From a virus (taxonomy: Duplodnaviria > Heunggongvirae > Uroviricota > Caudoviricetes), in the IMG/VR virus record IMGVR_UViG_2703718802_000011: 48,734 nucleotides of DNA; one strand, given 5' to 3'. Shown piece after piece: positions 18,983 to 30,152 of the stretch; within the stretch, counting starts at the first letter, position 1; every line of letters begins with the position of its first letter. Position numbers and translations under genes: made by a program. The notes under the pieces are model-generated. The model saw nothing but the letters and a program-made list of their open reading frames with translations. It was not told where the DNA came from and made no database searches.

Positions 18983-19809
18983 AAGAAATGCACCACGAAA
19001 TTCATCATTTCCATGGGACGCCTGTCTGGGGAAGTGCTGGCGACGTTCATCGTATTGCGGTGAGCGGAGCTGGCGCTTTCGTCTCCTATGTACGACCAGA
19101 TCAGATTGCGGCGTCCATTCAGCATGCTCAGGTCGTCGGCATTGATAACGGCGCATTTTCTGCATGGGTGCGTGGGCTAAAAATTAACTGGAGTGATTTT
19201 TATAAATGGCTCCTGAACTATTACCACCATCCTAAGGTCGCTTTTTTTGTCATTCCTGATGTTGTGGACGGCGGTGAACGTGACAATGATGCCCTGATAA
19301 ACGAAGTTCCGAAAATGTTCTACGGGAAGGCAACTCCCGTCTGGCATCTGCACGAGTCAATCGATCGGCTTATCGAGCTATGTCGTGAATGGCCTCGTGT
19401 CTGCTTTGGATCGTCTGGTGAATATGCGGCTATCAGAACTGCGCACTGGCATCGTCGTATGCAGGACGCTTTTGAAGCAATTTATTGCCGACACAATTTC
19501 AAAACAGCTGTTCATGGTTTGCGCATGCTTGACGGTCGTGTGTTGGGAAATTACCCACTGGCGACTGCCGACAGTACAAATCTTGCCTGCAATGTCCCCA
19601 AATTTAATAGCAAATATCCTGAGCTTACGCGGGCTATTCAGGAGGCTGAGTATTCGCGCAATCTGACGGAAAAGGAGCTGAAAGCTGTCATTCTGAAAAA
19701 CCGTTGCGCAATTTTAAAAGGTGCAATTGAAGCTGTTCGCCCACCTTCAGTTTCTGATTGGCTGTCGAATGGTTTGCAGCCTTCACAGCTCGAACTGGAG
19801 ATTGCGTAA
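18979..19809 (+). CDS. Hypothetical protein between dam and the replication gene
   Basis: 276-aa ORF (GTG 18979 or ATG 18988) overlapping the dam stop and the A start; no motif I can assign. Confidence 0.45.
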
Positions 19810-22181
19810 TGAACTACAGCTATTCCTGGAATGCTGAGAAAAAAGCAATCAATCCTTACGTAGGGACAGAAGAGCAATCTTCAGTTTCTGCGCTTTCAAA
19901 CCTGATCGCTCTGTACGCTGCCGATAACGAGCAGGAACACCTGCGCCGCGAGGTACTGAGTGATCAGGTCTGGGAGCGTTATTTCTTTAATGAATCCCGT
20001 GATCCTGTCCAGCGCGAAATGGAGCAGGATAAGCTCATTAGTCGGGCAAAGCTGGCGCATGAGCAGCAGCGTTTTAATCCGGACATGGTCATTCTGGCTG
20101 ACGTCAACGCCCAGCCTTCCCATATCAGCAAGCCGCTGATGCAACGTATTGAATATTTCAGCAGCCTGGGCAGGCCAAAGGCTTATTCCCGCTATTTGCG
20201 TGAGACGATTAAGCCATGTCTGGAACGACTGGAGCATGTACGCGACAGCCAGCTATCTGCATCTTTTCGTTTTATGGCAAGCCATGAAGGGCTGGACGGT
20301 CTGCTGATCCTGCCTGAAATGAGTCAGGATCAGGTGAAACGCCTGTCTACCCTTGTCGCTGCGCATATGAGCATGTGTCTTGATGACGCTTGTGGTGATT
20401 TGTATGCCACCGATGACGTTAAGCCAGAAGAAATCCGCAAGACATGGGAAAGGGTGGCAGCAGAAACCCTGCGACTGGATGTCATTCCACCTGCGTTTGA
20501 GCAACTCCGCCGGAAAAGAAACCGCCGTAAACCCGTGCCCTATGAACTCATTCCGGGTTCGCTGGCGCGTATGTTGTGCGCCGACTGGTGGTATCGGAAA
20601 TTATGGAAGATGCGTTGCGAATGGCGGGAAGAGCAGTTGCGCGCTGTCTGCCTGGTCAGCAAAAAAGCATCTCCCTATGTCAGCTATGAAGCCGTGATGC
20701 ATAAACGTGAGCAGCGCCGTAAGTCGCTGGAGTTTTTTCGTTCTCATGAACTGGTGAACGAAGACGGCGACACGCTGGATATGGAAGACGTGGTAAACGC
20801 CAGCAGCAGCAACCCTGCGCATCGCCGCAATGAGATGATGGCCTGTGTTAAAGGTCTGGAGCTTATCGCGGAAATGCGCGGTGACTGCGCCGTTTTCTAC
20901 ACCATCACCTGTCCGTCACGTTTCCATTCCACGCTAAATAACGGCAGACCAAACCCGACCTGGACAAACGCGACAGTAAGACAAAGCAGTGATTATCTGG
21001 TCGGCATGTTTGCTGCATTTCGTAAAGCGATGCACAAAGCTGGATTGCGCTGGTATGGCGTGCGGGTGGCTGAGCCGCATCATGACGGTACAGTTCACTG
21101 GCACCTGTTGTGTTTTATGCGCAAAAAAGATCGCCGAGCCATTACTGCTTTGTTGCGTAAGTTTTCCATTCGTGAAGACCGCGAGGAGCTGGGTAATAAC
21201 ACGGGACCACGCTTTAAGTCTGAGCTGATAAACCCGCGTAAAGGTACGCCAACAAGCTACATCGCGAAATACATCAGTAAGAACATTGACGGACGTGGTC
21301 TGGCTGGTGAGATCAGCAAGGAAACGGGTAAATCCCTGCGTGATAACGCTGAATACGTTAATGCCTGGGCGTCTCTGCATCGTGTTCAGCAATTCCGCTT
21401 CTTTGGTATTCCGGGGCGTCAGGCTTACCGTGAACTGCGATTGCTGGCTGGTCAGGCGGCAAGGCAGCAGGGGGACAAAAAAGCAGGTGCGCCGGTACTG
21501 GATAACCCACGCCTTGATGCCATCCTGGCTGCTGCTGATGCTGGCTGTTTTGCCACCTACATCATGAAGCAGGGCGGCGTGCTGGTTCCCCGCAAATATC
21601 ACCTTATCAGAACAGCTTATGAAATTAACGAAGAGCCGACCGCCTATGGCGATCACGGCATTCGTATTTATGGCATCTGGTCACCCATTGCAGAGGGCAA
21701 GATCTGCACTCATGCAGTGAAGTGGAAAATGGTTCGTAAAGCCGTTGACGTTCAGGAGGCGGCAGCCGACCAGGGCGCTTGCGCCCCTTGGACTCGTGGC
21801 AATAACTGTCCCCTTGCTGAAAATTTGAACCAACAGGAGAAAGATAAATCAGCTGATGGGGACCCCAGAACGGACATTACCCGCATGGATGACAAGGTGT
21901 TGCACGATTACCTGCACAGTATGAACAAAAAGAAGCGCCGGGAATTGGCTGCAAGGTTACGTCTGGTGAAACCGAAACGGCGTAGAGACTACAAACAGCG
22001 AATTACAGACCATCAACGACAGCAGCTTGTCTATGAACTGAAATCCAGAGGATTTGATGGCAGCGAGAAAGAGGTCGATTTACTCCTTCGCGGCGGCAGT
22101 ATTCCGTCAGGAGCAGGCCTGCGTATCTTCTATCGGAACCAGCGTTTGCAGGAAGATGATAAGTGGCGGAACCTGTATTAA
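19809..22181 (+). CDS. A: Rolling-circle replication initiator endonuclease (P2 gpA / 186 A homologue)
   Basis: 791 aa from ATG 19809 (overlapping the upstream TAA); HUH motif 'VHWHLLCF' and tyrosine motif 'YIAKYISK'; conserved position upstream of the cargo hotspot. Confidence 0.85.
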
Positions 22182-22274
22182 TTACGCTGGTTAACAATTC
22201 GTGCTCTTAATAATACCAGGCATATCAGGCTGATAAGCGTAAAAAAAACGTTTTACATCAGTAAGATTATTATA

Positions 22275-22294
22275 TACTGTAAATATAAACAGTG
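22275..22294 (+). promoter_or_regulatory. LexA (SOS) box TACTGTAAATATAAACAGTG
   Basis: Perfect CTGT-N8-ACAG with AT-rich spacer (CTGT 22277-22280, ACAG 22289-22292), about 45 bp upstream of ATG 22336. Confidence 0.7.
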
Positions 22295-22335
22295 GTTATA
22301 CATACAGTATTGCGTGTGGTGTCATAGGAGGAAAG

Positions 22336-22524
22336 ATGCAGGACTATTTTTTGGAGTCTTTGAAGCTCCAGCGCATTGATTTTTTTCTTAAGCTTGTAGC
22401 GGCTAGTGAGTGCGATGATGAAGAGAAGCGGCTTGCTATCCAGTGGGTTTCGGAGCTGACCGATGAGTTAATGGCGAAAATCCGTACTCATGAGTACAAC
22501 CGTTCAATGGATCTCCCCGGTTAG
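22336..22524 (+). CDS. Small LexA-regulated protein, candidate Tum-like antirepressor
   Basis: 62-aa ORF with AGGAGG RBS (22326-22331) directly downstream of the SOS box; same relative position as the SOS-controlled tum locus of phage 186. Confidence 0.5.
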   Translation: MQDYFLESLKLQRIDFFLKLVAASECDDEEKRLAIQWVSELTDELMAKIRTHEYNRSMDLPG

Positions 22525-23109
22525 GCTTAGGAACGTTGCTGGCGTTAGGACTTGATTCTGACGCTAGCAAGGTTGATCAACGAGCCATGCGAGGCGTTAG
22601 TCATGGGCAAAAAAATAGTAACTTCCAGATTTTGTTTCGTGCCAGGTATTGAGTAGTTTTATCGCCAGAGGGGCTGTTAGCGCTCAAACTACTAATGGAG
22701 CCACACCTTAGATGAGTGATTTGGCTTAAGCTATGATTATATAGTTTTGCTGTACGGCGGCCTTGCTTTTTATTGAAGCGACCAGACTGGAACAACGGCG
22801 AAAGGAGACTAACGATACGCACCAGTTTTTTGAAAAGGTACAGTTATCTAGATTGGTTGCCAATTTTCGTTGAAGCCTGACATACCATTAGGTCATTGCT
22901 TTAGAAAAATTAATACTTGATGTGAGAATTGCTTCAAAACATCTAGAATTAAAGTTTCTTTACTAGTATGCTTCACCACTTGGTCGTTGGGTTGAGTGCA
23001 AAAGCTAAGGCTGATGCCCAGTACGCTATCCGCATTATTGCCAGAGAACCGATTCGAAACCGGAATCTGGCAGAGCATGGGCGCAAGTGCTGGCTTCCCA
23101 ACGGCCTCG

Positions 23110-24078
23110 TTATTTATAATATGCTGACTTCAAAACCACTCGTCTTTCAACCTGCTGTGATAGCATTACCGCGTTAGTCCAATCTTTTGGATACCTTATT
23201 TCTTCTATAACACGAATATAAGCACATACTTTATTTTTTCCCTCTCCTTTGGCATAAGTAACCTCTAGATTATTAAATTTCAATAAGTGCTCTCTTCTTT
23301 GGTAAGTAAAACAGCCGTAATCACGGACATCAGAAGAAGTAATAGCATGAGTTGAAGGAAACCGAACTAGTAAATTTCTCAAGTAGGGAATAATGTCCAA
23401 ACTCGTTGCTTTGTTTTCTTCTCTGCGACTCTTTCTGAACATATGTCTCCAACCCAGCCGTGTAAGCTCGATTTTCCCAAGCACCGGAGATGTGATTTCT
23501 TTCTGTTCAGAATAACGTTTTTTAACAAACGCTCGCCGATTATTAAGTAGTGAGTTTCTTCTTCTTACATGGATTCCTTTTGCTCCAGTTTCACCTGCAC
23601 GTACCATGGACATACAGCGAGCCAGGTCAAACCGTGTAGCCGGAGTGATTAAGTGATATTCTCCATAAGTTTGGTTTTTAAGGGTAGTGTTTGGATGTAT
23701 ATAGGCCCAAAATGCTTTACGATTAGTTCTGTCAACCCAAACGACACATATATGGTGAGTTGTCCTTTTGGCTGCTTTTTTTGCGGCCGAATTTAATACA
23801 AAACCTTTCTCTAATAAATGACCATAAGTTGCCCCTGATTTAACTTGCGACAATATAAGCATTCTTTCTTTTGATGCCCATGGATGTTCGAAGGATAATA
23901 TTAAATCTATTTTTGAATTGTCGTCTTCCCTGGAACCCCAGTGCCCCTCTCCTCTACAAGCAAGAATGAATTGACTCATTGCATAAGATTCGGCGTCACT
24001 GCCGTTAACTGAGTTAAACTGTCTTGTTTCTAGCACAGTTGGTATTGGTCGTGATGCAAGTAAACTGAAAGATCCCAC
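23110..24078 (-). CDS. Hypothetical cargo protein in the A-Q hotspot
   Basis: 322-aa ORF on the opposite strand to flanking phage genes, AT-rich, with no P2/186 counterpart at this position. Confidence 0.5.
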   Translation of the reverse strand: MGSFSLLASRPIPTVLETRQFNSVNGSDAESYAMSQFILACRGEGHWGSREDDNSKIDLILSFEHPWASKERMLILSQVKSGATYGHLLEKGFVLNSAAKKAAKRTTHHICVVWVDRTNRKAFWAYIHPNTTLKNQTYGEYHLITPATRFDLARCMSMVRAGETGAKGIHVRRRNSLLNNRRAFVKKRYSEQKEITSPVLGKIELTRLGWRHMFRKSRREENKATSLDIIPYLRNLLVRFPSTHAITSSDVRDYGCFTYQRREHLLKFNNLEVTYAKGEGKNKVCAYIRVIEEIRYPKDWTNAVMLSQQVERRVVLKSAYYK

Positions 24079-24515
24079 TTATAGTTCTCTCCAAAAAATT
24101 GCATAATCTTGAACGCTAAAAAATAGTATACAAACTAAAGTATTTTTTCATTTAATTCAATGTATTGGCTAAAATTAAGACATTTATAGCTATATGTACT
24201 AGATAACATAGCGTTGTTTTCCTTTTGAAATCTCTTCTTGTGGTAACACAACAGTATTTACTCAAGTAGTTTGTCACTGCATGGGGAGATTTCGCTATGT
24301 CCGCGGCATCATACAGATGCGATAGATTTTCAGCATGACCTTGGGTAGCAAATCTGTAGGTATCATCCATTGCACCTCAAAGTAACTCTGGTGCATACCT
24401 ATGCTGCATGAAAATGAATGATCGCTAGTGGATCGTTTATGTCGAAGCCTGCCAGTTCTGACGGGCTTTTGCTTATGTTATGCAACTGCATGAAAACCAC
24501 TACACAAAGCGGGCA

Positions 24516-24534
24516 GGCGTGGCGGGGATACGAG
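24516..24534. other. Candidate cos cohesive-end sequence (GGCGTGGCGGGGATACGAG)
   Basis: GC-rich 19-mer in an AT-rich intergenic region; the first 13 nt match the 186/P2 cohesive-end sequence as I recall it (GGCGTGGCGGGGAAAGCAT / GGCGAGGCGGGGAAAGCAC). Confidence 0.35.
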
Positions 24535-24686
24535 CGCGCGCTAAGTCATATAAGAGTTATATATTGATTTGATTGCTGGACATGCATACAGTATCGCTCT
24601 ATCATCTAATAAATCTTAGAGTATTTGACAATGTTTGGATAAAATGGAACCTAACTTATTCATAATCCGCTAAACAGGGATGTCAG

Positions 24687-25601
24687 ATGCCATACCAATT
24701 GGTAGAGCTTAGCCCCGTAGCTAACGATCTTGAACAGTTAGGAACCAAAGAGAAGTTTTGGTTCTATTTCTCCGATGACACTGTAAATTTGCAGTTGTTT
24801 AAGTACTCTAGGCCAGGTACTGGCGAGCATTGGTCTGAAAAGTGTGCTGCTGAGTTATGTCATTTGCTTAACATTCCACATGCTAGCTATGATTTGGCGC
24901 GATACAATGGTCGATTCGGTGTGGTGACTCAGAATATCATTCCATCTGGTTTCCGGATGGTAATGGGAAATGAAGTGCTTCACAGTTCGACATTCGATTA
25001 TCCTGGGCCTTTACAAGCCGGGGAAAAGCCGGTAAGGGTCAGAGAACACACTGTCACAAGGGTATTGGGTTGTTTGGATAGGGAATCTATCAAGCCTCCT
25101 CCGAGTGTATATGATCTAACCGGGCTAAATGCAGCAGATGTATTTTGTGGATATTTGATGCTCGATGCACTTGTGAGTAATCAAGATCGCCATCATGAAA
25201 ATTGGGCGATCATGCTTAACAATGAAACTGGTGAGCAGTTTTTGTGTCCAACATACGATCATGCCGCTAGTTTAGGAAGGGAGATGTTAGATGATGAGCG
25301 TAACGAACGGCTTAATACTAAAGATAAAAATCGACAAATCCCATGTTTTGTAAGAAAAGCTCGCTCTGAGCTATTCAAAGCAAAAACTGATAAAAAGCCC
25401 TTGCTGACCGTTGAAGCATTTCAACATGCAGTTGAAGGGAGAGTTGCCGCTCGCGACCATTGGTTAGGTAAGTTGAGCGTTTTAACAGAAGATTCCATTA
25501 CAGATGTGTTTAACCAAGTGCCTTCATCGTGTATATCCGACAGTGCACGTAGATTTGCAACGTTAATGGTAATGGAAAATCGCAGAAGGTTACTAGAATG
25601 A
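24687..25601 (+). CDS. HipA-like (HipT-type) serine/threonine kinase domain protein
   Basis: 304 aa; 'LGTKEKFWF' (HipA P-loop-like) near the N-terminus, catalytic 'SNQDRHHENWA' (D-x-H-x2-N, about nt 25185) and 'CPTYDHAASLG' (HipA D332-region-like). Confidence 0.65.
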   Translation: MPYQLVELSPVANDLEQLGTKEKFWFYFSDDTVNLQLFKYSRPGTGEHWSEKCAAELCHLLNIPHASYDLARYNGRFGVVTQNIIPSGFRMVMGNEVLHSSTFDYPGPLQAGEKPVRVREHTVTRVLGCLDRESIKPPPSVYDLTGLNAADVFCGYLMLDALVSNQDRHHENWAIMLNNETGEQFLCPTYDHAASLGREMLDDERNERLNTKDKNRQIPCFVRKARSELFKAKTDKKPLLTVEAFQHAVEGRVAARDHWLGKLSVLTEDSITDVFNQVPSSCISDSARRFATLMVMENRRRLLE

Positions 25602-26338
25602 CTAATACAAACTCCGTTTACGTCGCATGGCAGGCACCAGATACCAGAGACTGGCATGTTGTTGGTAACTTGCAAGAGCGCAAATCGGGGTATGTTTTCA
25701 GGTATACCAAAGGTGCTCTTAAATCTACTAAATTTACAAAGTTTAGCGGCATGAGTGATGTTCGTGAAACTTATGTTTCGGAAGAATTGTTTCCTCTTTT
25801 TAAAAATCGCCTTTTATCACCGAGACGTCCAGAGTATCCGAGTTTCATTAAATGGCTTGGATTTGAAGAAGATAAGGTAAATCCTATCGATATTCTTGCT
25901 CGCTCGGGAGGCTTACGAAGCACTGATCAGCTGCAGATTTTCAAAAAAATTGATGTTGATTCTGATGGTAACTTTGAGCATTTTTTCTTCTTACATGGAC
26001 TTGGTTACTTAAATAGCTTAGCTAATGCTCGTGTATCTGAATTGAAACCGGGGCAAATTTTGCGTCTTTGCTTGGATCTTCAAAATGAATACGATGGGGA
26101 TGCTGTTGTCGTTCGTGCAGATAAACCAGCTGAAATCGTTGGTTACTGCCCTAGGTATTTAAGTAATGATATCAAGAAGATGTTATTGGATGATCCAAAA
26201 TCAATCACTTTAACGGTCGAAAAGATTAGCGATGATGCTCCTCATAACTATCGGTTATTATGTAAATTATCAGGAGTACTAAGCCAAGCCTGTCAATCGA
26301 CGCTGATTCCTCAGGATGAGTTTGAACCTATTGAGTAA
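25598..26338 (+). CDS. HipA N-terminal (HipS-like) domain fused to a HIRAN-like domain
   Basis: ATG overlaps the kinase stop (ATGA). N-terminus 'VVGNLQERKSGYVFRY...EELFPLFKNRLLSPRR...NPIDILARSGGLRS' resembles the HipA N-subdomain; C-terminus 'ILRLCLDLQNEYDGDAVVVRADKPAEIVGYCPRYLS' resembles the HIRAN consensus. Confidence 0.5.
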   Translation: MTNTNSVYVAWQAPDTRDWHVVGNLQERKSGYVFRYTKGALKSTKFTKFSGMSDVRETYVSEELFPLFKNRLLSPRRPEYPSFIKWLGFEEDKVNPIDILARSGGLRSTDQLQIFKKIDVDSDGNFEHFFFLHGLGYLNSLANARVSELKPGQILRLCLDLQNEYDGDAVVVRADKPAEIVGYCPRYLSNDIKKMLLDDPKSITLTVEKISDDAPHNYRLLCKLSGVLSQACQSTLIPQDEFEPIE

Positions 26339-26344
26339 ATGAAG

Positions 26345-26368
26345 AAAAGCCACCAAACGGTGGCTTTT
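26345..26368. terminator. Bidirectional rho-independent terminator between the kinase module and Q
   Basis: Perfect 10-bp stem aaaagccacc/ggtggctttt with 4-nt loop, flanked by A-run and T-run. Confidence 0.7.
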
Positions 26369-26372
26369 CTTA

Positions 26373-27413
26373 TTATGGGACTATATCTAGCGAGTAGGTA
26401 TTAAACTGTATCGCCTCCTTGCCAAGCCAATCATTCATCTCCTGTAATCGCTTTTGTAGTGGCATTAGCTCATTTCGGACGAATACACGGCTTGCCTTTT
26501 CCACATCCCCAAACCCCCCAACATTATTCGGCATAATCCCCATCATTTGTGGCGGCACGCGGTGCGCTGCCATCATGTCATCCCGACTCACGTTCTTGAT
26601 GTTAAGAAATTCATCCTTCGCCGCGACTTCTGACAATGGGATGATCTGAAGCCCGTCTTTTTTGCCGTTAGGTGAGTACATAAACAGGTTGCGGAAGTTG
26701 CCTGGACCTTTGGCGCTTTTCATCGCGTTGCGGAGGTTGTTCACATCCTCCTGATTCTGCGCGGCATCGGTCATGTACATGATGAAGCCTGCATGGCTGC
26801 CATTGATGTAATACTTACGGCGGAACAGCGTGGCGGACTCGTTGAGCAGAGCGGATGGAATAGCAGAAAGATAGCCAGGCAGGCCGTAGATCTCCTGGTT
26901 GATGTCCGGTTCCATCAGATGAAAGATGCTGCCTTTCGTGAACTGATACGGCTGGGTTGTCATACCGTATTGCACAAACCAGTAGGTATCCAGGTCTAAC
27001 CCGCGTCGGGTGTATTTTGCCAGAGCAGGCTCAAGGGCGATAATTTCACCGAAGCGGTTCGTGCGTTTCTCCAGGTAGGCGTTACCAAATACCAGATAGT
27101 CCTGCACAAAACGTGAAAAAGCCTGCTGGCTGAGCAACGGGTGAGGGATATAGGTGCTGGTCAGAATGTTGCACTTTACTGCAATCGGTGAGCTGTGGTG
27201 TACGGCGGCGCGGAAGGTTCGCGCCAGGCCGTCGAAACTCACTGGTGGCTCATACCAACGGTCCATCTGTACGCATTCCACATAGTCCAGCAGTTCGCGG
27301 CGGTCCAGAACAGGAACGGGATCGCCGAAGCTGAATGCTTCGGCTGTAGTTTGACTTTTAAGCTGGATCTGTTTCGTCGCCGCAGCGCGGTTCTTCTTAC
27401 TCTTTCCCATCAA
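26373..27413 (-). CDS. Q: Portal protein (P2 gpQ homologue)
   Basis: 346 aa (P2 Q is about 344); downstream of the terminase large subunit in the leftward operon. Confidence 0.8.
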   Translation of the reverse strand: MMGKSKKNRAAATKQIQLKSQTTAEAFSFGDPVPVLDRRELLDYVECVQMDRWYEPPVSFDGLARTFRAAVHHSSPIAVKCNILTSTYIPHPLLSQQAFSRFVQDYLVFGNAYLEKRTNRFGEIIALEPALAKYTRRGLDLDTYWFVQYGMTTQPYQFTKGSIFHLMEPDINQEIYGLPGYLSAIPSALLNESATLFRRKYYINGSHAGFIMYMTDAAQNQEDVNNLRNAMKSAKGPGNFRNLFMYSPNGKKDGLQIIPLSEVAAKDEFLNIKNVSRDDMMAAHRVPPQMMGIMPNNVGGFGDVEKASRVFVRNELMPLQKRLQEMNDWLGKEAIQFNTYSLDIVP

Positions 27414-29176
27414 AAAATCTCCACAATATTGCTGGTATTGGCGGATTCGCCCTGCAGCGGTTCGTTAAACAGTGCGTGCATCGTTGCCCAGGCCAGATCG
27501 GCGTGGCTGGCTTCTTCGCTGCGGCTGGCTTCATAGGTCGGGCGGTTGCCACTGGCGGTGGTGGCGCGACGGATTGCCATAAAGGACTGCGCTATGTCGG
27601 TGTGTCCGGCGTCAAACTCCAGACGGCGGTGGCTGATAATGTCGTAGGCCTTGAGTACCAGGGCGTTTTTAACGTTGGGGCTGTAGACAAACTCCCGGAC
27701 GGCAGGAAAAAACGCTTTCACGTTCTCGTAAACCCCGTGACCAACGCCGGTTGAGTCGATACCGATATAGGTCACGTTGTACTGTTCGGTCAGTTTTTTG
27801 ATGGCGTCAGCCTGGGCGCGGAAGTCCATTCCGCGCCACTGGTGACGCTCAAGAATGCGGAACTTACCGCCCGGCACGGCTGGCGGAGCCACCACCACGC
27901 ATCCGGCGCTGTCGCCGTTCTGCGTACCTTTCGCCGGGTCATATCCGATCCACACTTCGCGCCAGCCAAACGGGCGCAGGGCCAGTGCATGAAAGTCGGT
28001 CCAGACTTCCCAACTGTCCACCATGCACGCCTGCAGCTCGCTGAGCGGGAACACGGACGCGAGATCGTCCACGAACTCACACATCAGCAGGTTCTGGTAT
28101 TCGTCCGGGCTGTACTCCATGCGCAACTGGTCGAGGTCGAATAGGTTACAGCCGCCGCGCACCGCATCTTCCACAGTGACTATCTGGCGGTACTGCCCGT
28201 CTGCGCACAGCAGGCCGGGGGCCAGATTGCTGTGGGACAGGTCGATGTCCACCTTATCGGCTTTGTTGCGCCCTCGGTTGAACAGCGCACCGGACCAGAA
28301 CGGATAAGCACTGTGTGTCAGGCTGGATGGCGTGGAAAAATAGGTTTGTCGCCATTTTTTGTGAATAGCCATACCGGAAGCCACTTTGCGCAGCTCCTGG
28401 AATTTCGGTATCCAGAAATATTCATCCAGATACAGGTTGCCGTGGTAACTCTGGGCCGTGCGGGCATTGGTGCCGAGGAAGTACAGCGTGGCCCCGTTAG
28501 GAAGCACCATCGGATCGCCTTTCAGCTCCACCTCCACTTCTTTGGCGAAGTCGATGATGTACTGCTTAAAGACGTGGGCCTGAGCCTTGCTGGCGGAAAG
28601 GAAAATCTGGTTACGCCCGGTCAGCAGGGCGTCAATCAGGGCTTCACGGGCAAAATAGAAGGTCGCGCCGATCTGGCGTGACTTCAGCAGGTTGCGGATG
28701 CGGTTGGTTTTTCCGGCTTCCCACCAGTGGCGCTGGTAGTTGAACATGGAGGAATGGAAGATTTCTTTCAGCTTCTCAATCTGTTCATCGGTGAAAACGT
28801 TCTTTTCCGGCTGACGGCGCGGGCCTTTGTTGCGGTTGGCGACGTTAGGGTTTAAGTCGGCTTCGTTGCCGCCATTGTTAAACTTGCCGATCCGCGCATG
28901 GCGCTCCGACTGGCGCGCCAGCAGGTCAATCTCTTTGAAATCTTTCCCTTCTTTGTGCTCCTTCATAATGAGCTGGCAGTAGCGTGCGGCGGTGGTGAGC
29001 TGCATCTGATCCAGCGGCCCATAGTCACCCCACTTGTCGCGTTTTTTCCAGCTGTGAACGGTTGCAACTTTCTCGCCCAGCATTTCAGCAATGCGGGCTA
29101 CGCGGTATCCCTGAAAGTACAGCAGCATGGCCTGCCGACGGGGATCGAGATCTGCGGGTGTCAGTGTGGTGTTCAT
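27410..29176 (-). CDS. P: Terminase large subunit (P2 gpP homologue)
   Basis: 588 aa (P2 P is about 590); divergent from O; ATPase/nuclease-sized protein. Confidence 0.8.
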   Translation of the reverse strand: MNTTLTPADLDPRRQAMLLYFQGYRVARIAEMLGEKVATVHSWKKRDKWGDYGPLDQMQLTTAARYCQLIMKEHKEGKDFKEIDLLARQSERHARIGKFNNGGNEADLNPNVANRNKGPRRQPEKNVFTDEQIEKLKEIFHSSMFNYQRHWWEAGKTNRIRNLLKSRQIGATFYFAREALIDALLTGRNQIFLSASKAQAHVFKQYIIDFAKEVEVELKGDPMVLPNGATLYFLGTNARTAQSYHGNLYLDEYFWIPKFQELRKVASGMAIHKKWRQTYFSTPSSLTHSAYPFWSGALFNRGRNKADKVDIDLSHSNLAPGLLCADGQYRQIVTVEDAVRGGCNLFDLDQLRMEYSPDEYQNLLMCEFVDDLASVFPLSELQACMVDSWEVWTDFHALALRPFGWREVWIGYDPAKGTQNGDSAGCVVVAPPAVPGGKFRILERHQWRGMDFRAQADAIKKLTEQYNVTYIGIDSTGVGHGVYENVKAFFPAVREFVYSPNVKNALVLKAYDIISHRRLEFDAGHTDIAQSFMAIRRATTASGNRPTYEASRSEEASHADLAWATMHALFNEPLQGESANTSNIVEIF

Positions 29177-29318: not shown

Positions 29319-30152
29319 ATGACAGTGAAAGCAAAGCGTTTTCGCATCGGGGTGGAAGGTGCCACCACCGACGGACGCGAAATCCAGCGTGAATGGCTGG
29401 AACAGATGGCAGCCAGCTACAACCCGGCGGTGTATACCGCGCTGATTAACCTTGAGCACATCAAGTCTTATCTGCCGGACAGCACCTTTAACCGCTACGG
29501 CAAGGTGACGGCGTTGTTTGCTGAAGAAATCACGGAAGGTCCGCTGGCAGGCAAGATGGCGCTGTATGCCGACGTTGAGCCAACGGAGTCCCTGGTGGAA
29601 CTGGTGAAAAAAGGCCAGAAATTATTCACCTCTATGGAAGTCAGCCCGAAGTTCGCTGATACGGGCAAAGCCTATCTGGTCGGCCTGGCTGCCACTGATG
29701 ACCCTGCCAGTCTGGGCACTGAAATGCTGACATTCAGCGCCAGTGCAGCTCATAACCCGCTGGCAAACCGCAAGCAGAATCCCGCCAATCTTTTTACAGC
29801 TGCAGAGGAAACGGTGATCGAACTGGAAGAAATCCAGGACGACAAACCGTCCCTGTTTGCCCGTGTCACGGCGCTGTTTACCAAAAAAGAGCAGTCCGAT
29901 GACGCCCGATTCTCTGATGTGCATAAGGCCGTGGAGCTGGTCGCCACTGAGCAGCAGAACCTGAGCGCACGCACCGAAAAATCCCTGTCTGAGCAGGAAG
30001 AACGCCTGTCTGAGCTGGAGACTGCTCTGCAGGAGCAGCAAACCGCCTTTAACGAACTGGTGAATAAGCTGAGTCATGAAGACAGCCGCCAGGACTACCG
30101 CCAGCGTGCAACAGGCGGTAACGCCCCCGCTGACACTCTGACCAATTGCTGA
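29319..30152 (+). CDS. O: Capsid scaffolding protein (P2 gpO homologue)
   Basis: 277 aa, acidic coiled-coil-rich C-terminus, first gene of the rightward head operon. Confidence 0.8.
   Translation: MTVKAKRFRIGVEGATTDGREIQREWLEQMAASYNPAVYTALINLEHIKSYLPDSTFNRYGKVTALFAEEITEGPLAGKMALYADVEPTESLVELVKKGQKLFTSMEVSPKFADTGKAYLVGLAATDDPASLGTEMLTFSASAAHNPLANRKQNPANLFTAAEETVIELEEIQDDKPSLFARVTALFTKKEQSDDARFSDVHKAVELVATEQQNLSARTEKSLSEQEERLSELETALQEQQTAFNELVNKLSHEDSRQDYRQRATGGNAPADTLTNC

What the first reader, a model, noticed from the sequence alone, without database searches (positions are those of the whole stretch)
24687..26338. HipA-like kinase encoded before a HipS-like/HIRAN fusion partner in the prophage A-Q cargo hotspot
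Seen: the 304-aa ORF carries HipA-type motifs ('GTKEKF' P-loop-like at the N-terminus, catalytic 'DRHHEN' at about nt 25185, 'YDHAAS') but lacks the HipA N-terminal subdomain. The overlapping downstream 246-aa ORF (ATGA coupling) has an N-terminus resembling that missing subdomain ('G.L......Y.F.Y', 'ELFPLFKNRLL', 'IDILARSGG') and a C-terminus resembling a HIRAN domain ('EYDGDAVVV...EIVGYCPRYLS', about nt 25970-26243). Established: HipA/HipT kinases are growth-arresting toxins (phosphorylating aminoacyl-tRNA synthetases); in HipBST the HipS subdomain is the antitoxin and is encoded upstream; HIRAN domains bind DNA 3' ends. Inference: a permuted, split HipA with a DNA-end-sensing partner, sited where P2-like phages carry defence cargo, could be a kinase-based abortive-infection or superinfection-exclusion system. 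No HipB-like HTH gene is evident nearby.
Basis: partly seen in the sequence, partly recalled or inferred. Interest (0 to 1): 0.75.

Follow-up and report, generated by a model that had tools for sequence, protein, structure and literature searches.

The report
Known hipIN kinase module beside cos
The two overlapping genes are a clear member of the already described but experimentally untested hipIN / PADLOC PDC-M03 family (a short HipA-type kinase plus a HipS-like–HIRAN partner), carried as optional cargo between the cos site and the portal gene of a P2-like prophage.

Summary
ORF 24687-25601 (304 aa) is a short HipA-superfamily kinase. [quoted passage not shown] Profile, fold and motif evidence agree.

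It is not new. This architecture was defined as hipIN (HipI kinase + HipN) by Gerdes, Baerentsen and Brodersen (mBio 2021). They already proposed that HIRAN senses phage DNA ends and triggers kinase-mediated abortive infection. Both proteins match PADLOC candidate system PDC-M03 over their full length (E 2e-122 and 3e-93). I found no experimental test of hipIN in the held literature.

What I add:
- The pair lies on the portal side of the cos site (24516-24534), in an interval that is 167 bp and gene-free in P2. It is not in the old/tin slot on the A side.
- This cos-hipIN-Q arrangement recurs in 38 viral contigs whose portal identity falls to 62%.
- The gene order is kept in all 56 assessable viral loci, and on cyanobacterial and actinobacterial plasmids.
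- The catalytic residues are invariant down to 31% identity.
- Only 21 of 5,426 complete E. coli genomes carry it, against 1,251 with this portal gene.

Function remains inferred.

The parts
24516..24534 (+). cos-like cohesive-end site of the P2-like prophage (GGCGTGGCGGGGATACGAG). This is context: it marks the left border of the slot that holds the module.
   Evidence: Window 24487-24542 aligns 42/56 with the circularised P2 cos region, with this 19-mer opposite P2 cosL GGCGAGGCGGGGAAAGCAC (P2 annotation). A GGCG[AT]GGCGGGG motif lies 170-285 nt upstream of hipI in 38 viral loci.
24577..24605 (+). sigma-70-like promoter candidate for hipIN (TGGACA-17-TATCAT)
   Evidence: Best consensus match in the region, 10 of 12. 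It lies downstream of cos and 82 nt upstream of the hipI ATG. This is a consensus match only; function was not shown.
24687..25601 (+). hipI: short HipA-superfamily Ser/Thr kinase, 304 aa, lacking HipA N-subdomain-1
   Evidence: PADLOC PDC-M03A E 2.1e-122, residues 2-304. phrog_8728 E 2e-184. The AlphaFold model matches CtkA, HipA and HipT. Pfam HipA_C is below cut-off.
24732..24761 (+). putative Gly-rich (ATP-binding) loop, residues 16-25, EQLGTKEKFW
   Evidence: E16, G19, K23 and W25 are invariant down to 31% identity. In the model the segment forms a strand-loop-strand with low pLDDT. The assignment rests on motif and position only; the alignment to the HipA loop was unreliable.
25185..25202 (+). 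catalytic loop D167-R-H-H-E-N172
   Evidence: hhalign places D167, H169 and N172 opposite HipA D309, H311 and N314. D167, R168, H169 and N172 are invariant in alignments A1 and A4.
25254..25271 (+). Mg-binding motif Y190-D191-H-A-A-S195
   Evidence: D191 aligns with HipA D332 and is invariant in A1 and A4.
25598..26338 (+). hipN: 246-aa partner, start codon overlapping the hipI stop (ATGA)
   Evidence: PADLOC PDC-M03B E 3.4e-93, residues 1-244. phrog_8026 E 2e-136. A homologue follows the kinase in 56 of 56 assessable viral loci.
25598..25942 (+). HipS-like domain of HipN, about residues 1-115 (the domain boundary is approximate)
25976..26281 (+). HIRAN domain of HipN, residues 127-228
26342..26371 (.). 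13-bp hairpin between the hipN stop (26338) and the portal gene stop (26373); a likely bidirectional terminator, in the position of P2 tQ
   Evidence: Minimum free energy -21.0 and -20.4 kcal/mol on the two strands, z -6.4 and -6.9, with U-rich tails on both (sequence). P2 has tQ at the same place. The consensus scan did not list it.

Best explanation
This is a hipIN module (PADLOC PDC-M03), an autonomous two-gene cassette carried as optional cargo between cos and the portal gene of a P2-like prophage.

Shown here:
- HipI is a HipA-superfamily kinase core with an intact, deeply conserved active site.
- HipN is a HipS-like domain fused to a HIRAN domain that keeps the Tyr-Asp of the DNA 3'-end pocket.
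- The two genes are translationally coupled and always travel together.

Inferred:
- When the HIRAN domain meets free DNA 3' ends (an injected or replicating foreign phage genome, or degraded DNA), inhibition is relieved.
- HipI then phosphorylates an essential host factor, by analogy an aminoacyl-tRNA synthetase. This stops translation and aborts the infection, protecting the lysogenic population and the prophage.

The confidence given (0.45) is for the whole mechanistic chain. Identity as a hipIN module alone I put at about 0.95.
For: Identity:
- Full-length PADLOC matches to both genes.
- HIRAN above the Pfam cut-off.
- Kinase fold matches CtkA, HipA and HipT.
- Partner fold matches HIRAN, HipS and the HipA N-terminus.
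- Catalytic Asp/Asn and the Mg-binding Asp align to HipA D309/N314/D332 and are invariant down to 31% identity across three phyla.
- The architecture matches the published definition of hipIN (PMC8262856).

Unit behaviour:
- The partner follows the kinase in 56 of 56 assessable viral loci, with a gap of 0-20 nt. HipI and HipN identities correlate at rho 0.97.
- The same order with overlapping genes is seen on Nostoc and Mycolicibacterium plasmids.
- It also occurs in an E. coli island, as a lone insertion in Vibrio cholerae, and in small Vibrio elements.

Accessory status and defence context:
- 21 versus 1,251 E. coli genomes.
- It lies within the A-Q region that Rousset et al. showed to hold anti-phage systems (PMC9122126).
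- Neighbouring A-side cargo differs between prophages that share an identical hipIN; one carries SIR2 plus an ATPase.
- PDC-M03 was nominated because members are embedded in BREX, DISARM or type I RM loci.
- Another HipA-family kinase pair (DS-6/HipAD) gives kinase-dependent phage defence (PMC13092281).

The HLTF 3'-end pocket residues Y93 and D94 are matched by Y165 and D166; D166 is invariant.
Against: - No experiment on hipIN was found. Toxicity, neutralisation, the kinase target, DNA binding and anti-phage activity are all unshown.
- The kinase misses the Pfam HipA_C cut-off (20.7 versus 30.5 bits), and sequence searches of the PDB reach only CtkA (E 9e-4).
- In HipA, the equivalent N-subdomain is part of an active enzyme. 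A HipS-like domain is therefore not necessarily inhibitory.
- I could not co-fold the pair.
- The hipIN divergence tracks the phage backbone (rho about 0.9). That fits long residence in one phage lineage at least as well as defence-island-style turnover.
- Promoter activity in the lysogen rests on a consensus match only.
Confidence: 0.45

Rival explanations
1. HipN is not an antitoxin but the missing lid and targeting subunit of a split kinase. It completes HipI in trans, as N-subdomain-1 does in cis in HipA. Through HIRAN it brings the active kinase to DNA ends, where the kinase phosphorylates DNA-bound phage or host proteins rather than a tRNA synthetase.
For: - Natural single-chain HipL proteins have the order kinase - HipS-like - HIRAN (PMC8262856). 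This shows the three domains can work as one polypeptide.
- The closest solved fold is CtkA, not a classical TA toxin.
- Kinase-first, partner-second order with translational coupling gives about equal stoichiometry. This is not the excess of antitoxin that is usual when the antitoxin gene comes first.
Against: - In the only studied split systems (HipBST of E. coli and Legionella), free HipS inhibits HipT (PMC8262856).
- Nothing in my data shows a DNA-bound substrate.
Confidence: 0.2
2. It is a plain addiction (post-segregational killing) toxin-antitoxin module that stabilises the prophage and other mobile elements. The HIRAN domain replaces HipB's HTH as the DNA-binding part, for autoregulation or tethering, and there is no phage sensing.
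For: - There is no HTH partner, so some other domain would have to supply DNA binding.
- The module sits on plasmids, islands and prophages.
- Its divergence tracks the phage backbone, as expected of a long-resident selfish passenger.
Against: - Solved HIRAN domains bind DNA 3' ends rather than operator sequences (as summarised in PMC8262856).
- The 3'-end pocket Tyr-Asp is conserved here.
- No palindromic operator lies around the promoter candidate. The only inverted repeat (24447-24460 / 24505-24518, 79% complementary) lies just left of cos.
- The V. cholerae copy sits alone between housekeeping genes, where nothing needs stabilising.
Confidence: 0.2
3. The pair serves the P2-like phage's own life cycle at cos. 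For example, it could recognise the recessed 3' ends of cleaved cos DNA to time host shut-off, or protect genome ends during packaging or injection.
For: - The position is fixed between cos and Q in 38 viral contigs, with Q identity from 100% down to 62% and A down to 32%.
- The spacing is constant: 41-60 nt to the Q stop, and cos 170-285 nt upstream.
- HIRAN binds 3' ends, and cos cleavage creates such ends.
Against: - P2 itself has no gene in this interval.
- Only about 1.7% of E. coli genomes with this portal gene carry the pair.
- Homologues at 29-72% identity sit in contexts with no P2-like genes at all.
Confidence: 0.05

Closest known systems
hipIN modules (HipI kinase + HipN), Gerdes, Baerentsen and Brodersen, mBio 2021 (PMC8262856); the same as PADLOC phage-defence candidate PDC-M03
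   Same: - Short kinase (279-321 aa in the paper, 304 aa here) lacking N-subdomain-1, with the Gly-rich loop near the N-terminus.
- A downstream gene for a HipS-like + HIRAN protein, and no HipB.
- Both proteins match the PDC-M03A and PDC-M03B models over their full length.
   Different: Nothing in architecture differs. The paper sampled only 14 hipIN modules and did not describe the P2-like cos-Q location. Here the HipN family spans about 1,000 clusters at 50% identity.
HipBST (E. coli O127, Legionella)
   Same: The kinase is split from its N-subdomain-1-like protein. HipN's N-domain superposes on HipS at rmsd 2.3 A. The kinase core resembles HipT.
   Different: There is no HipB. The HipS-like gene is downstream, not upstream, and is fused to HIRAN. 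The kinase is closer to CtkA than to HipT by fold score. [quoted passage not shown] By motif, an invariant Glu (E16) sits three residues before the loop Gly, but this is unverified.
HipL (single-chain kinase - HipS-like - HIRAN), same paper
   Same: The same three domains in the same order.
   Different: HipL is one polypeptide. Here there are two overlapping genes.
HipAD / DS-6 (DefensePredictor, PMC13092281)
   Same: A HipA-family kinase plus a non-HipB partner, in E. coli. The kinase catalytic residue is needed for phage defence.
   Different: The partner there carries DUF3037 and DUF1829, not HipS-like + HIRAN. I made no sequence comparison.
CtkA (Helicobacter pylori JHP0940), PDB 3akj
   Same: Best fold and best PDB sequence match for the kinase. 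CtkA is also a HipA-like core without the N-subdomain.
   Different: Only 14-16% identity. CtkA is described as a secreted proinflammatory kinase with no HipS/HIRAN partner.
P2 old and tin (lysogenic-conversion exclusion genes)
   Same: Optional cargo with their own promoters in the A-Q region of a P2-type genome.
   Different: old and tin lie on the A side of cos and are transcribed leftward. hipIN lies on the Q side of cos, in an interval that is empty in P2. The proteins are unrelated.

Membership tests
HipA-homologous kinases | Match to Pfam HipA_C (PF07804) at or above the gathering score | tested here: not met
   20.7 bits versus a cut-off of 30.5, E 3.6e-4, residues 154-225 only. Many homologues at 57-84% identity carry a precomputed PF07804 hit.
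HipA-homologous kinases | HipA/CtkA-type kinase fold | tested here: met
   Foldseek: CtkA E 1.5e-9 (TM 0.69/0.76), HipA E 5e-6 and weaker, HipT chains E 3e-5 to 6e-4. The model has pLDDT 84.9.
HipA-homologous kinases | Catalytic motif (HipA D309, N314) and Mg-binding Asp (D332) | tested here: met
   hhalign pairs D167/H169/N172 and D191 with HipA D309/H311/N314 and D332. All are invariant in alignments of 30 sequences and of 8 deep sequences.
HipA-homologous kinases | Gly-rich loop with an adjacent autophosphorylated Ser/Thr | tested here: inconclusive
   The motif E16-x-x-G19-[TS]-K-x-K23-[FW]-W25 is conserved and forms a strand-loop-strand. Alignment to the HipA loop was unreliable. T20 is Thr or Ser in 7 of 8 deep homologues.
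HipA-homologous kinases | Ser/Thr kinase activity causing growth arrest | not testable with these tools
   Needs expression and phosphoproteomics.
hipIN (Gerdes et al. 2021) | Short kinase lacking HipA N-subdomain-1 | tested here: met
   304 aa. The conserved loop starts at residue 16. The protein aligns over its full length with CtkA-sized cores.
hipIN (Gerdes et al. 2021) | Downstream gene encoding an N-terminal HipS-like plus C-terminal HIRAN protein | tested here: met
hipIN (Gerdes et al. 2021) | [quoted passage not shown] | not tested
   The reference accessions of Table S1 were not found in the held supplements. Indirect support: homologues on Nostoc and Mycolicibacterium plasmids have the same two-gene layout.
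hipIN (Gerdes et al. 2021) | Toxin neutralised by the partner | not testable with these tools
   This is a hypothesis in the defining paper as well.
PADLOC PDC-M03 | Adjacent genes matching the PDC-M03A and PDC-M03B models | tested here: met
   E 2.1e-122 (residues 2-304 of 304) and E 3.4e-93 (residues 1-244 of 246).
PADLOC PDC-M03 | Demonstrated anti-phage activity | not testable with these tools
   PDC systems are candidates nominated by embedding in other defence loci. I found no test.
HipBST | Three genes, hipB-hipS-hipT, with an HTH HipB and hipS upstream of the kinase | tested here: not met
   No HTH ORF nearby. The HipS-like domain is encoded downstream and fused to HIRAN.
HIRAN domain | Pfam HIRAN above cut-off, HIRAN fold, and the conserved 3'-end pocket Tyr-Asp | tested here: met
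HIRAN domain | Binding of DNA 3' ends | not testable with these tools
   Needs gel-shift or fluorescence assays with defined DNA ends.

The most novel reading that the evidence does not exclude
HipN would be a direct protein sensor of free DNA 3' ends that gates a HipA-type kinase. This would be the first toxin-antitoxin or abortive-infection switch triggered by DNA ends rather than by a phage protein or by host shut-off. Its fixed seat next to cos in divergent P2-like phages would reflect function. Possible examples: it is the first DNA region to enter or be expressed, or the resident phage's own cos ends must be told apart from foreign ends.
Probability: 0.15. Interest if true: 0.65.

Novelty: already known. 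Interest (0 to 1): 0.3.

Why it matters
hipIN is a widespread family: about 1,000 HipN clusters at 50% identity, in Proteobacteria, Cyanobacteria and Actinobacteria, on phages, plasmids and islands. Its function has never been tested.

This copy sits in an E. coli-type P2-like prophage, with its own promoter candidate and terminator in a cassette of less than 2 kb. That makes it an easy entry point for three questions:
- Is a HipS-like domain an inhibitor when fused to a DNA-end reader?
- Do DNA ends switch on a HipA-type kinase?
- What does the kinase phosphorylate?

The finding does not reveal a new kind of system.

Tried and rejected
- Sequence searches of the PDB with the single proteins gave nothing useful. 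The kinase profile reached only CtkA (E 9e-4). The partner profile gave only chance hits to crystallins.
- Extending the hhalign alignment to HipA beyond the catalytic region (-mact 0.01, -glob) gave alignments with near-zero confidence. I therefore do not claim a residue-level match for the Gly-rich loop or the autophosphorylation site.
- NCBIfam gave no meaningful hit.
- I looked for an operator-like palindrome or direct repeats near the promoter. The only inverted repeat is a weak one just left of cos.
- Rfam scan of 22000-26600: one hit far below its gathering score (32 versus 114 bits), lying on the terminator hairpin. I treat it as chance.
- An exact P2 cos 19-mer with up to 3 mismatches was not found. 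The site has 5 mismatches and was located by aligning the whole cos region instead.
- Literature searches for experimental work on HipI, HipN, hipIN or PDC-M03 found only the defining paper, genome-annotation mentions and an actinobacterial co-location report. Several 'HIRAN' hits were the surname Hirano.
- Brenes and Laub 2025 is not held, so I cannot exclude that it tested a HipA-HIRAN pair.
- I rejected 'core P2 gene'.
- I rejected 'decayed remnant', because the ORFs are intact and the catalytic residues invariant.
Full report
**1. What is in the sequence**

The window holds a P2-like prophage. Four backbone features bracket the finding:
- a gpA-type replication gene at 19758-22181 (+);
- the portal gene Q at 26373-27413 (-);
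- the terminase gene P at 27410-29176 (-);
- the capsid scaffold gene at 29319-30152 (+) (RefSeq annotation of a near-identical prophage).

Between A and Q, G+C falls from about 0.52 to 0.35-0.44.

The two ORFs of the finding exist as stated: 24687-25601 (304 aa) and 25598-26338 (246 aa), on the + strand. The second ATG overlaps the first stop as ATGA.

**2. What the two proteins are**

*Kinase: sequence evidence.*
- Pfam gives only a sub-threshold HipA_C hit (E 3.6e-4, 20.7 bits against a cut-off of 30.5, residues 154-225).
- NCBIfam gives nothing useful.
- The single protein finds nothing meaningful in the PDB. A 30-sequence profile reaches only CtkA of Helicobacter pylori (E 9e-4).

*Kinase: fold evidence.*
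- An AlphaFold model built on that alignment is confident (pLDDT 84.9, pTM 0.86).
- By Foldseek it matches CtkA (E 1.5e-9, TM 0.69/0.76), then E. coli and Shewanella HipA (E about 5e-6 to 1e-4), then HipT chains (7wcf, 7vkc, 8ezr).

*Kinase: active site.*
- hhalign against E. coli K-12 HipA aligns SNQDRHHENWAI with GATDGHAKNFSV, and TYDHAA with FYDIIS.
- This places D167, H169 and N172 opposite D309, H311 and N314, and D191 opposite the Mg-binding D332.
- These residues are invariant in 30 close homologues.
- They are also invariant in an 8-sequence alignment that reaches 31% identity and includes Nostoc and Mycolicibacterium plasmid copies. So are E16, G19, K23, W25, K39, G46, E47, D160 and N165.
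- The N-terminal E-x-x-G-[TS]-K-x-K-[FW]-W segment forms a strand-loop-strand of low pLDDT in the model. That fits a Gly-rich loop at the very N-terminus.
- I could not align this loop reliably to HipA's loop, so that assignment is inference.

*Partner.*
- Pfam HIRAN is above threshold (E 1.1e-13, residues 127-228). Couple_hipA is weak (E 0.018, residues 20-72).
- The model is confident (pLDDT 88.8).
- hhalign aligns residues 20-72 with HipA 11-65.
Against it, LDLQNEYDGDAVVV pairs with RDPNNPYDKNAIKV. This puts Y165 and D166 opposite Y93 and D94 of the 3'-end pocket. D166 is invariant.

The anatomical observation is therefore confirmed.

**3. It is an already named family**

PADLOC-DB matches both proteins end to end: PDC-M03A at E 2.1e-122 and PDC-M03B at E 3.4e-93. 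PDC systems are candidates nominated because members are embedded in BREX, DISARM or type I RM loci. They were not tested (10.1101/2024.01.29.577857).

Gerdes, Baerentsen and Brodersen (mBio 2021, PMC8262856) defined hipIN as:
- a short HipI kinase lacking N-subdomain-1, with

They proposed that HIRAN recognises DNA ends of invading phages and so activates the kinase to cause abortive infection.

Later papers only note the pair in genome annotations (PMC13245101) or its co-location with deoxydinucleotidases in Actinobacteria (PMC11706625).

I found no experimental study of hipIN. One relevant paper, Brenes and Laub 2025, is not held.

A different HipA-family pair, DS-6/HipAD, does give kinase-dependent defence (PMC13092281).

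**4. Unit behaviour and spread**

- The kinase search returned 955 proteins and the partner search 535. The listed best hits of both searches are mostly from Enterobacterales, Vibrio and other Gammaproteobacteria.
- A profile search of representatives at 50% identity finds 1,004 HipN-like clusters at E <= 1e-10. Nearly all are 240-265 aa and match over both domains. The family is far larger than the 14 modules in the defining paper.
- In 57 IMG/VR loci, a HipN homologue follows the kinase in 56. The remaining locus is cut 30 nt after the kinase. The gap is 0-20 nt.
- HipI and HipN identities to the window pair correlate at rho 0.97. The samples are not independent.

The same order with overlapping genes occurs in other contexts:
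- a Nostoc plasmid (36% identity) and a Mycolicibacterium plasmid (29%);
- an E. coli island with AlpA, DUF3987 and primase genes (71%);
- a lone insertion between housekeeping genes in Vibrio cholerae;
- 14-kb Vibrio elements classed under Vinavirales, next to an integrase.

No HTH gene accompanies the pair in the window, and no HTH family was reported for the flanking genes of the other loci I inspected.

**5. Where it sits: a refinement**

- Window 24487-24542 aligns with the cos region of P2. The sequence GGCGTGGCGGGGATACGAG (24516-24534) lies opposite cosL.
- In P2, cosL is at 1-19, the terminator tQ at 160-181 and Q at 187-1221. There is no gene between cos and Q. old and tin lie on the other side of cos, next to A.
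- Here hipIN fills the cos-Q interval. Its features in order:
  - a sigma-70-like promoter candidate at 24577-24605;
  - the two genes;
  - a 13-bp hairpin at 26342-26371 (-21 kcal/mol, z about -6.5 on both strands), shared with the convergent Q gene.
- A second E. coli prophage is collinear up to 22512 and again from 24393. It carries different A-side cargo (DinI-like, SIR2, ATPase) in place of the window's 322-aa and 72-aa ORFs.
- So the A-Q region has two slots separated by cos. The A-side slot turns over among prophages that share an identical hipIN: the 322-aa ORF is present in only 6 of the viral loci whose HipI is 100% identical.
- The cos-hipIN-Q layout recurs in 38 viral contigs, with Q identity from 100% down to 62% and A down to 32%. 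In the 30 of these contigs that carry long Q and P matches, 41-60 nt separate the hipN stop from the Q stop. In all 38, cos lies 170-285 nt upstream.
- HipI identity tracks Q and P identity (rho 0.92 and 0.88). This suggests long residence in this slot within one branch of P2-like phages.
- The pair is nevertheless optional. 1,251 of 5,426 complete E. coli genomes have this portal gene at 80% identity or more. Only 21 have this hipIN, and the 15 listed hits all show it next to the portal gene.
- Among deposited phage genomes, the kinase is found only in the four Vibrio elements and, more weakly, in one Clostridioides phage.

**6. Mechanism**

*Shown:*
- an intact, strongly conserved HipA-type active site;
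- a HipS-like fold;
- a HIRAN fold with the pocket Tyr-Asp;
- translational coupling;
- obligate pairing of the two genes;
- mobile, optional distribution within a region known to hold anti-phage cargo (PMC9122126).

*Inferred, by analogy with HipBST and HLTF:*
- HipN's N-domain holds HipI inactive.
- DNA 3' ends bound by HIRAN relieve this inhibition.
- HipI then phosphorylates an essential translation factor and aborts the infection.

I put about 0.45 on this whole chain and about 0.95 on the identity as hipIN.

*Rivals:*
- HipN as an activating and targeting subunit of a split kinase: 0.2.
- A plain addiction module, with HIRAN as a surrogate for HipB's DNA binding: 0.2.
- A role in the phage's own biology at cos: 0.05.

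The data here cannot separate the first two rivals from the main model. The third is disfavoured by the absence of the pair from P2 and its presence in contexts with no P2-like genes.

**7. Verdict**

However, both the architecture and the hypothesis are in the literature, and the pair is already in a defence-annotation database.

The new points are modest:
- the cos-Q slot and its conservation across divergent P2-like phages;
- the large size of the family;
- the deep invariance of the active site.

I rate novelty as already known and interest as low to moderate. What interest there is rests on the family being untested and this copy being easy to study experimentally.

Noticed in passing
window 24487-24542 (19-mer at 24516-24534): This is the cos site of the prophage. 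It splits the A-Q 'hotspot' into an A-side slot (22513-24392) and a Q-side slot (24535-26372, holding hipIN). In P2 the Q-side interval is 167 bp with no gene.
   Followed up: yes
window 23110-24078 (-) and 24152-24370 (-): A 322-aa ORF with a weak DUF4365 match (E 0.12), preceded by a 72-aa ORF on the same strand, fills the A-side slot. It has no PADLOC, PHROG or phage-database hit. It has 145 homologues, all 'hypothetical', and some carry PF14280. It is present in only 6 of the viral loci whose HipI is 100% identical. It may be an uncharacterised single-gene defence candidate.
   Followed up: partly
L001 2215-5492 (E. coli GmM062 prophage): A sister prophage with the same hipIN carries a DinI-like gene plus a SIR2-family protein and an ATP-binding protein in the A-side slot, in place of the 322-aa ORF.
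   Followed up: no
window 22336-22524 (+): A 62-aa ORF just after gene A matches phrog_698 (E 1e-36, unknown function). It belongs to the conserved backbone, not the variable cargo; the sister prophage shares the sequence up to 22512.
   Followed up: no
L070 2935-4649 (Vibrio phage 10N.222.46.E12_PE001): Four 14-kb Vibrio cyclitrophicus elements classed under Vinavirales carry a HipA-like/HIRAN pair (37% identity) next to an integrase. The module therefore also rides non-tailed, tectivirus-like elements.
   Followed up: partly
L003-L007 8001-9663 (E. coli island): A second E. coli hipIN lineage (71% identity, 146 member sequences) sits in an island with AlpA, DUF3987 and primase genes, next to a two-partner-secretion/CdiA-like locus. 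It is not in a P2-like phage.
   Followed up: partly
window 26324-26402 (-): A sub-threshold Rfam hit to Brucella sRNA BSnc120 (32 bits against a gathering score of 114) coincides with the hipN/Q terminator hairpin. It is most likely a chance match to a hairpin.
   Followed up: no
window 24732-24761 (HipI residues 16-25): By motif spacing, an invariant Glu (E16) lies three residues before the loop Gly. This is where HipA has the autophosphorylated Ser150, so it could be a built-in phosphomimic. The alignment is unverified.
   Followed up: partly
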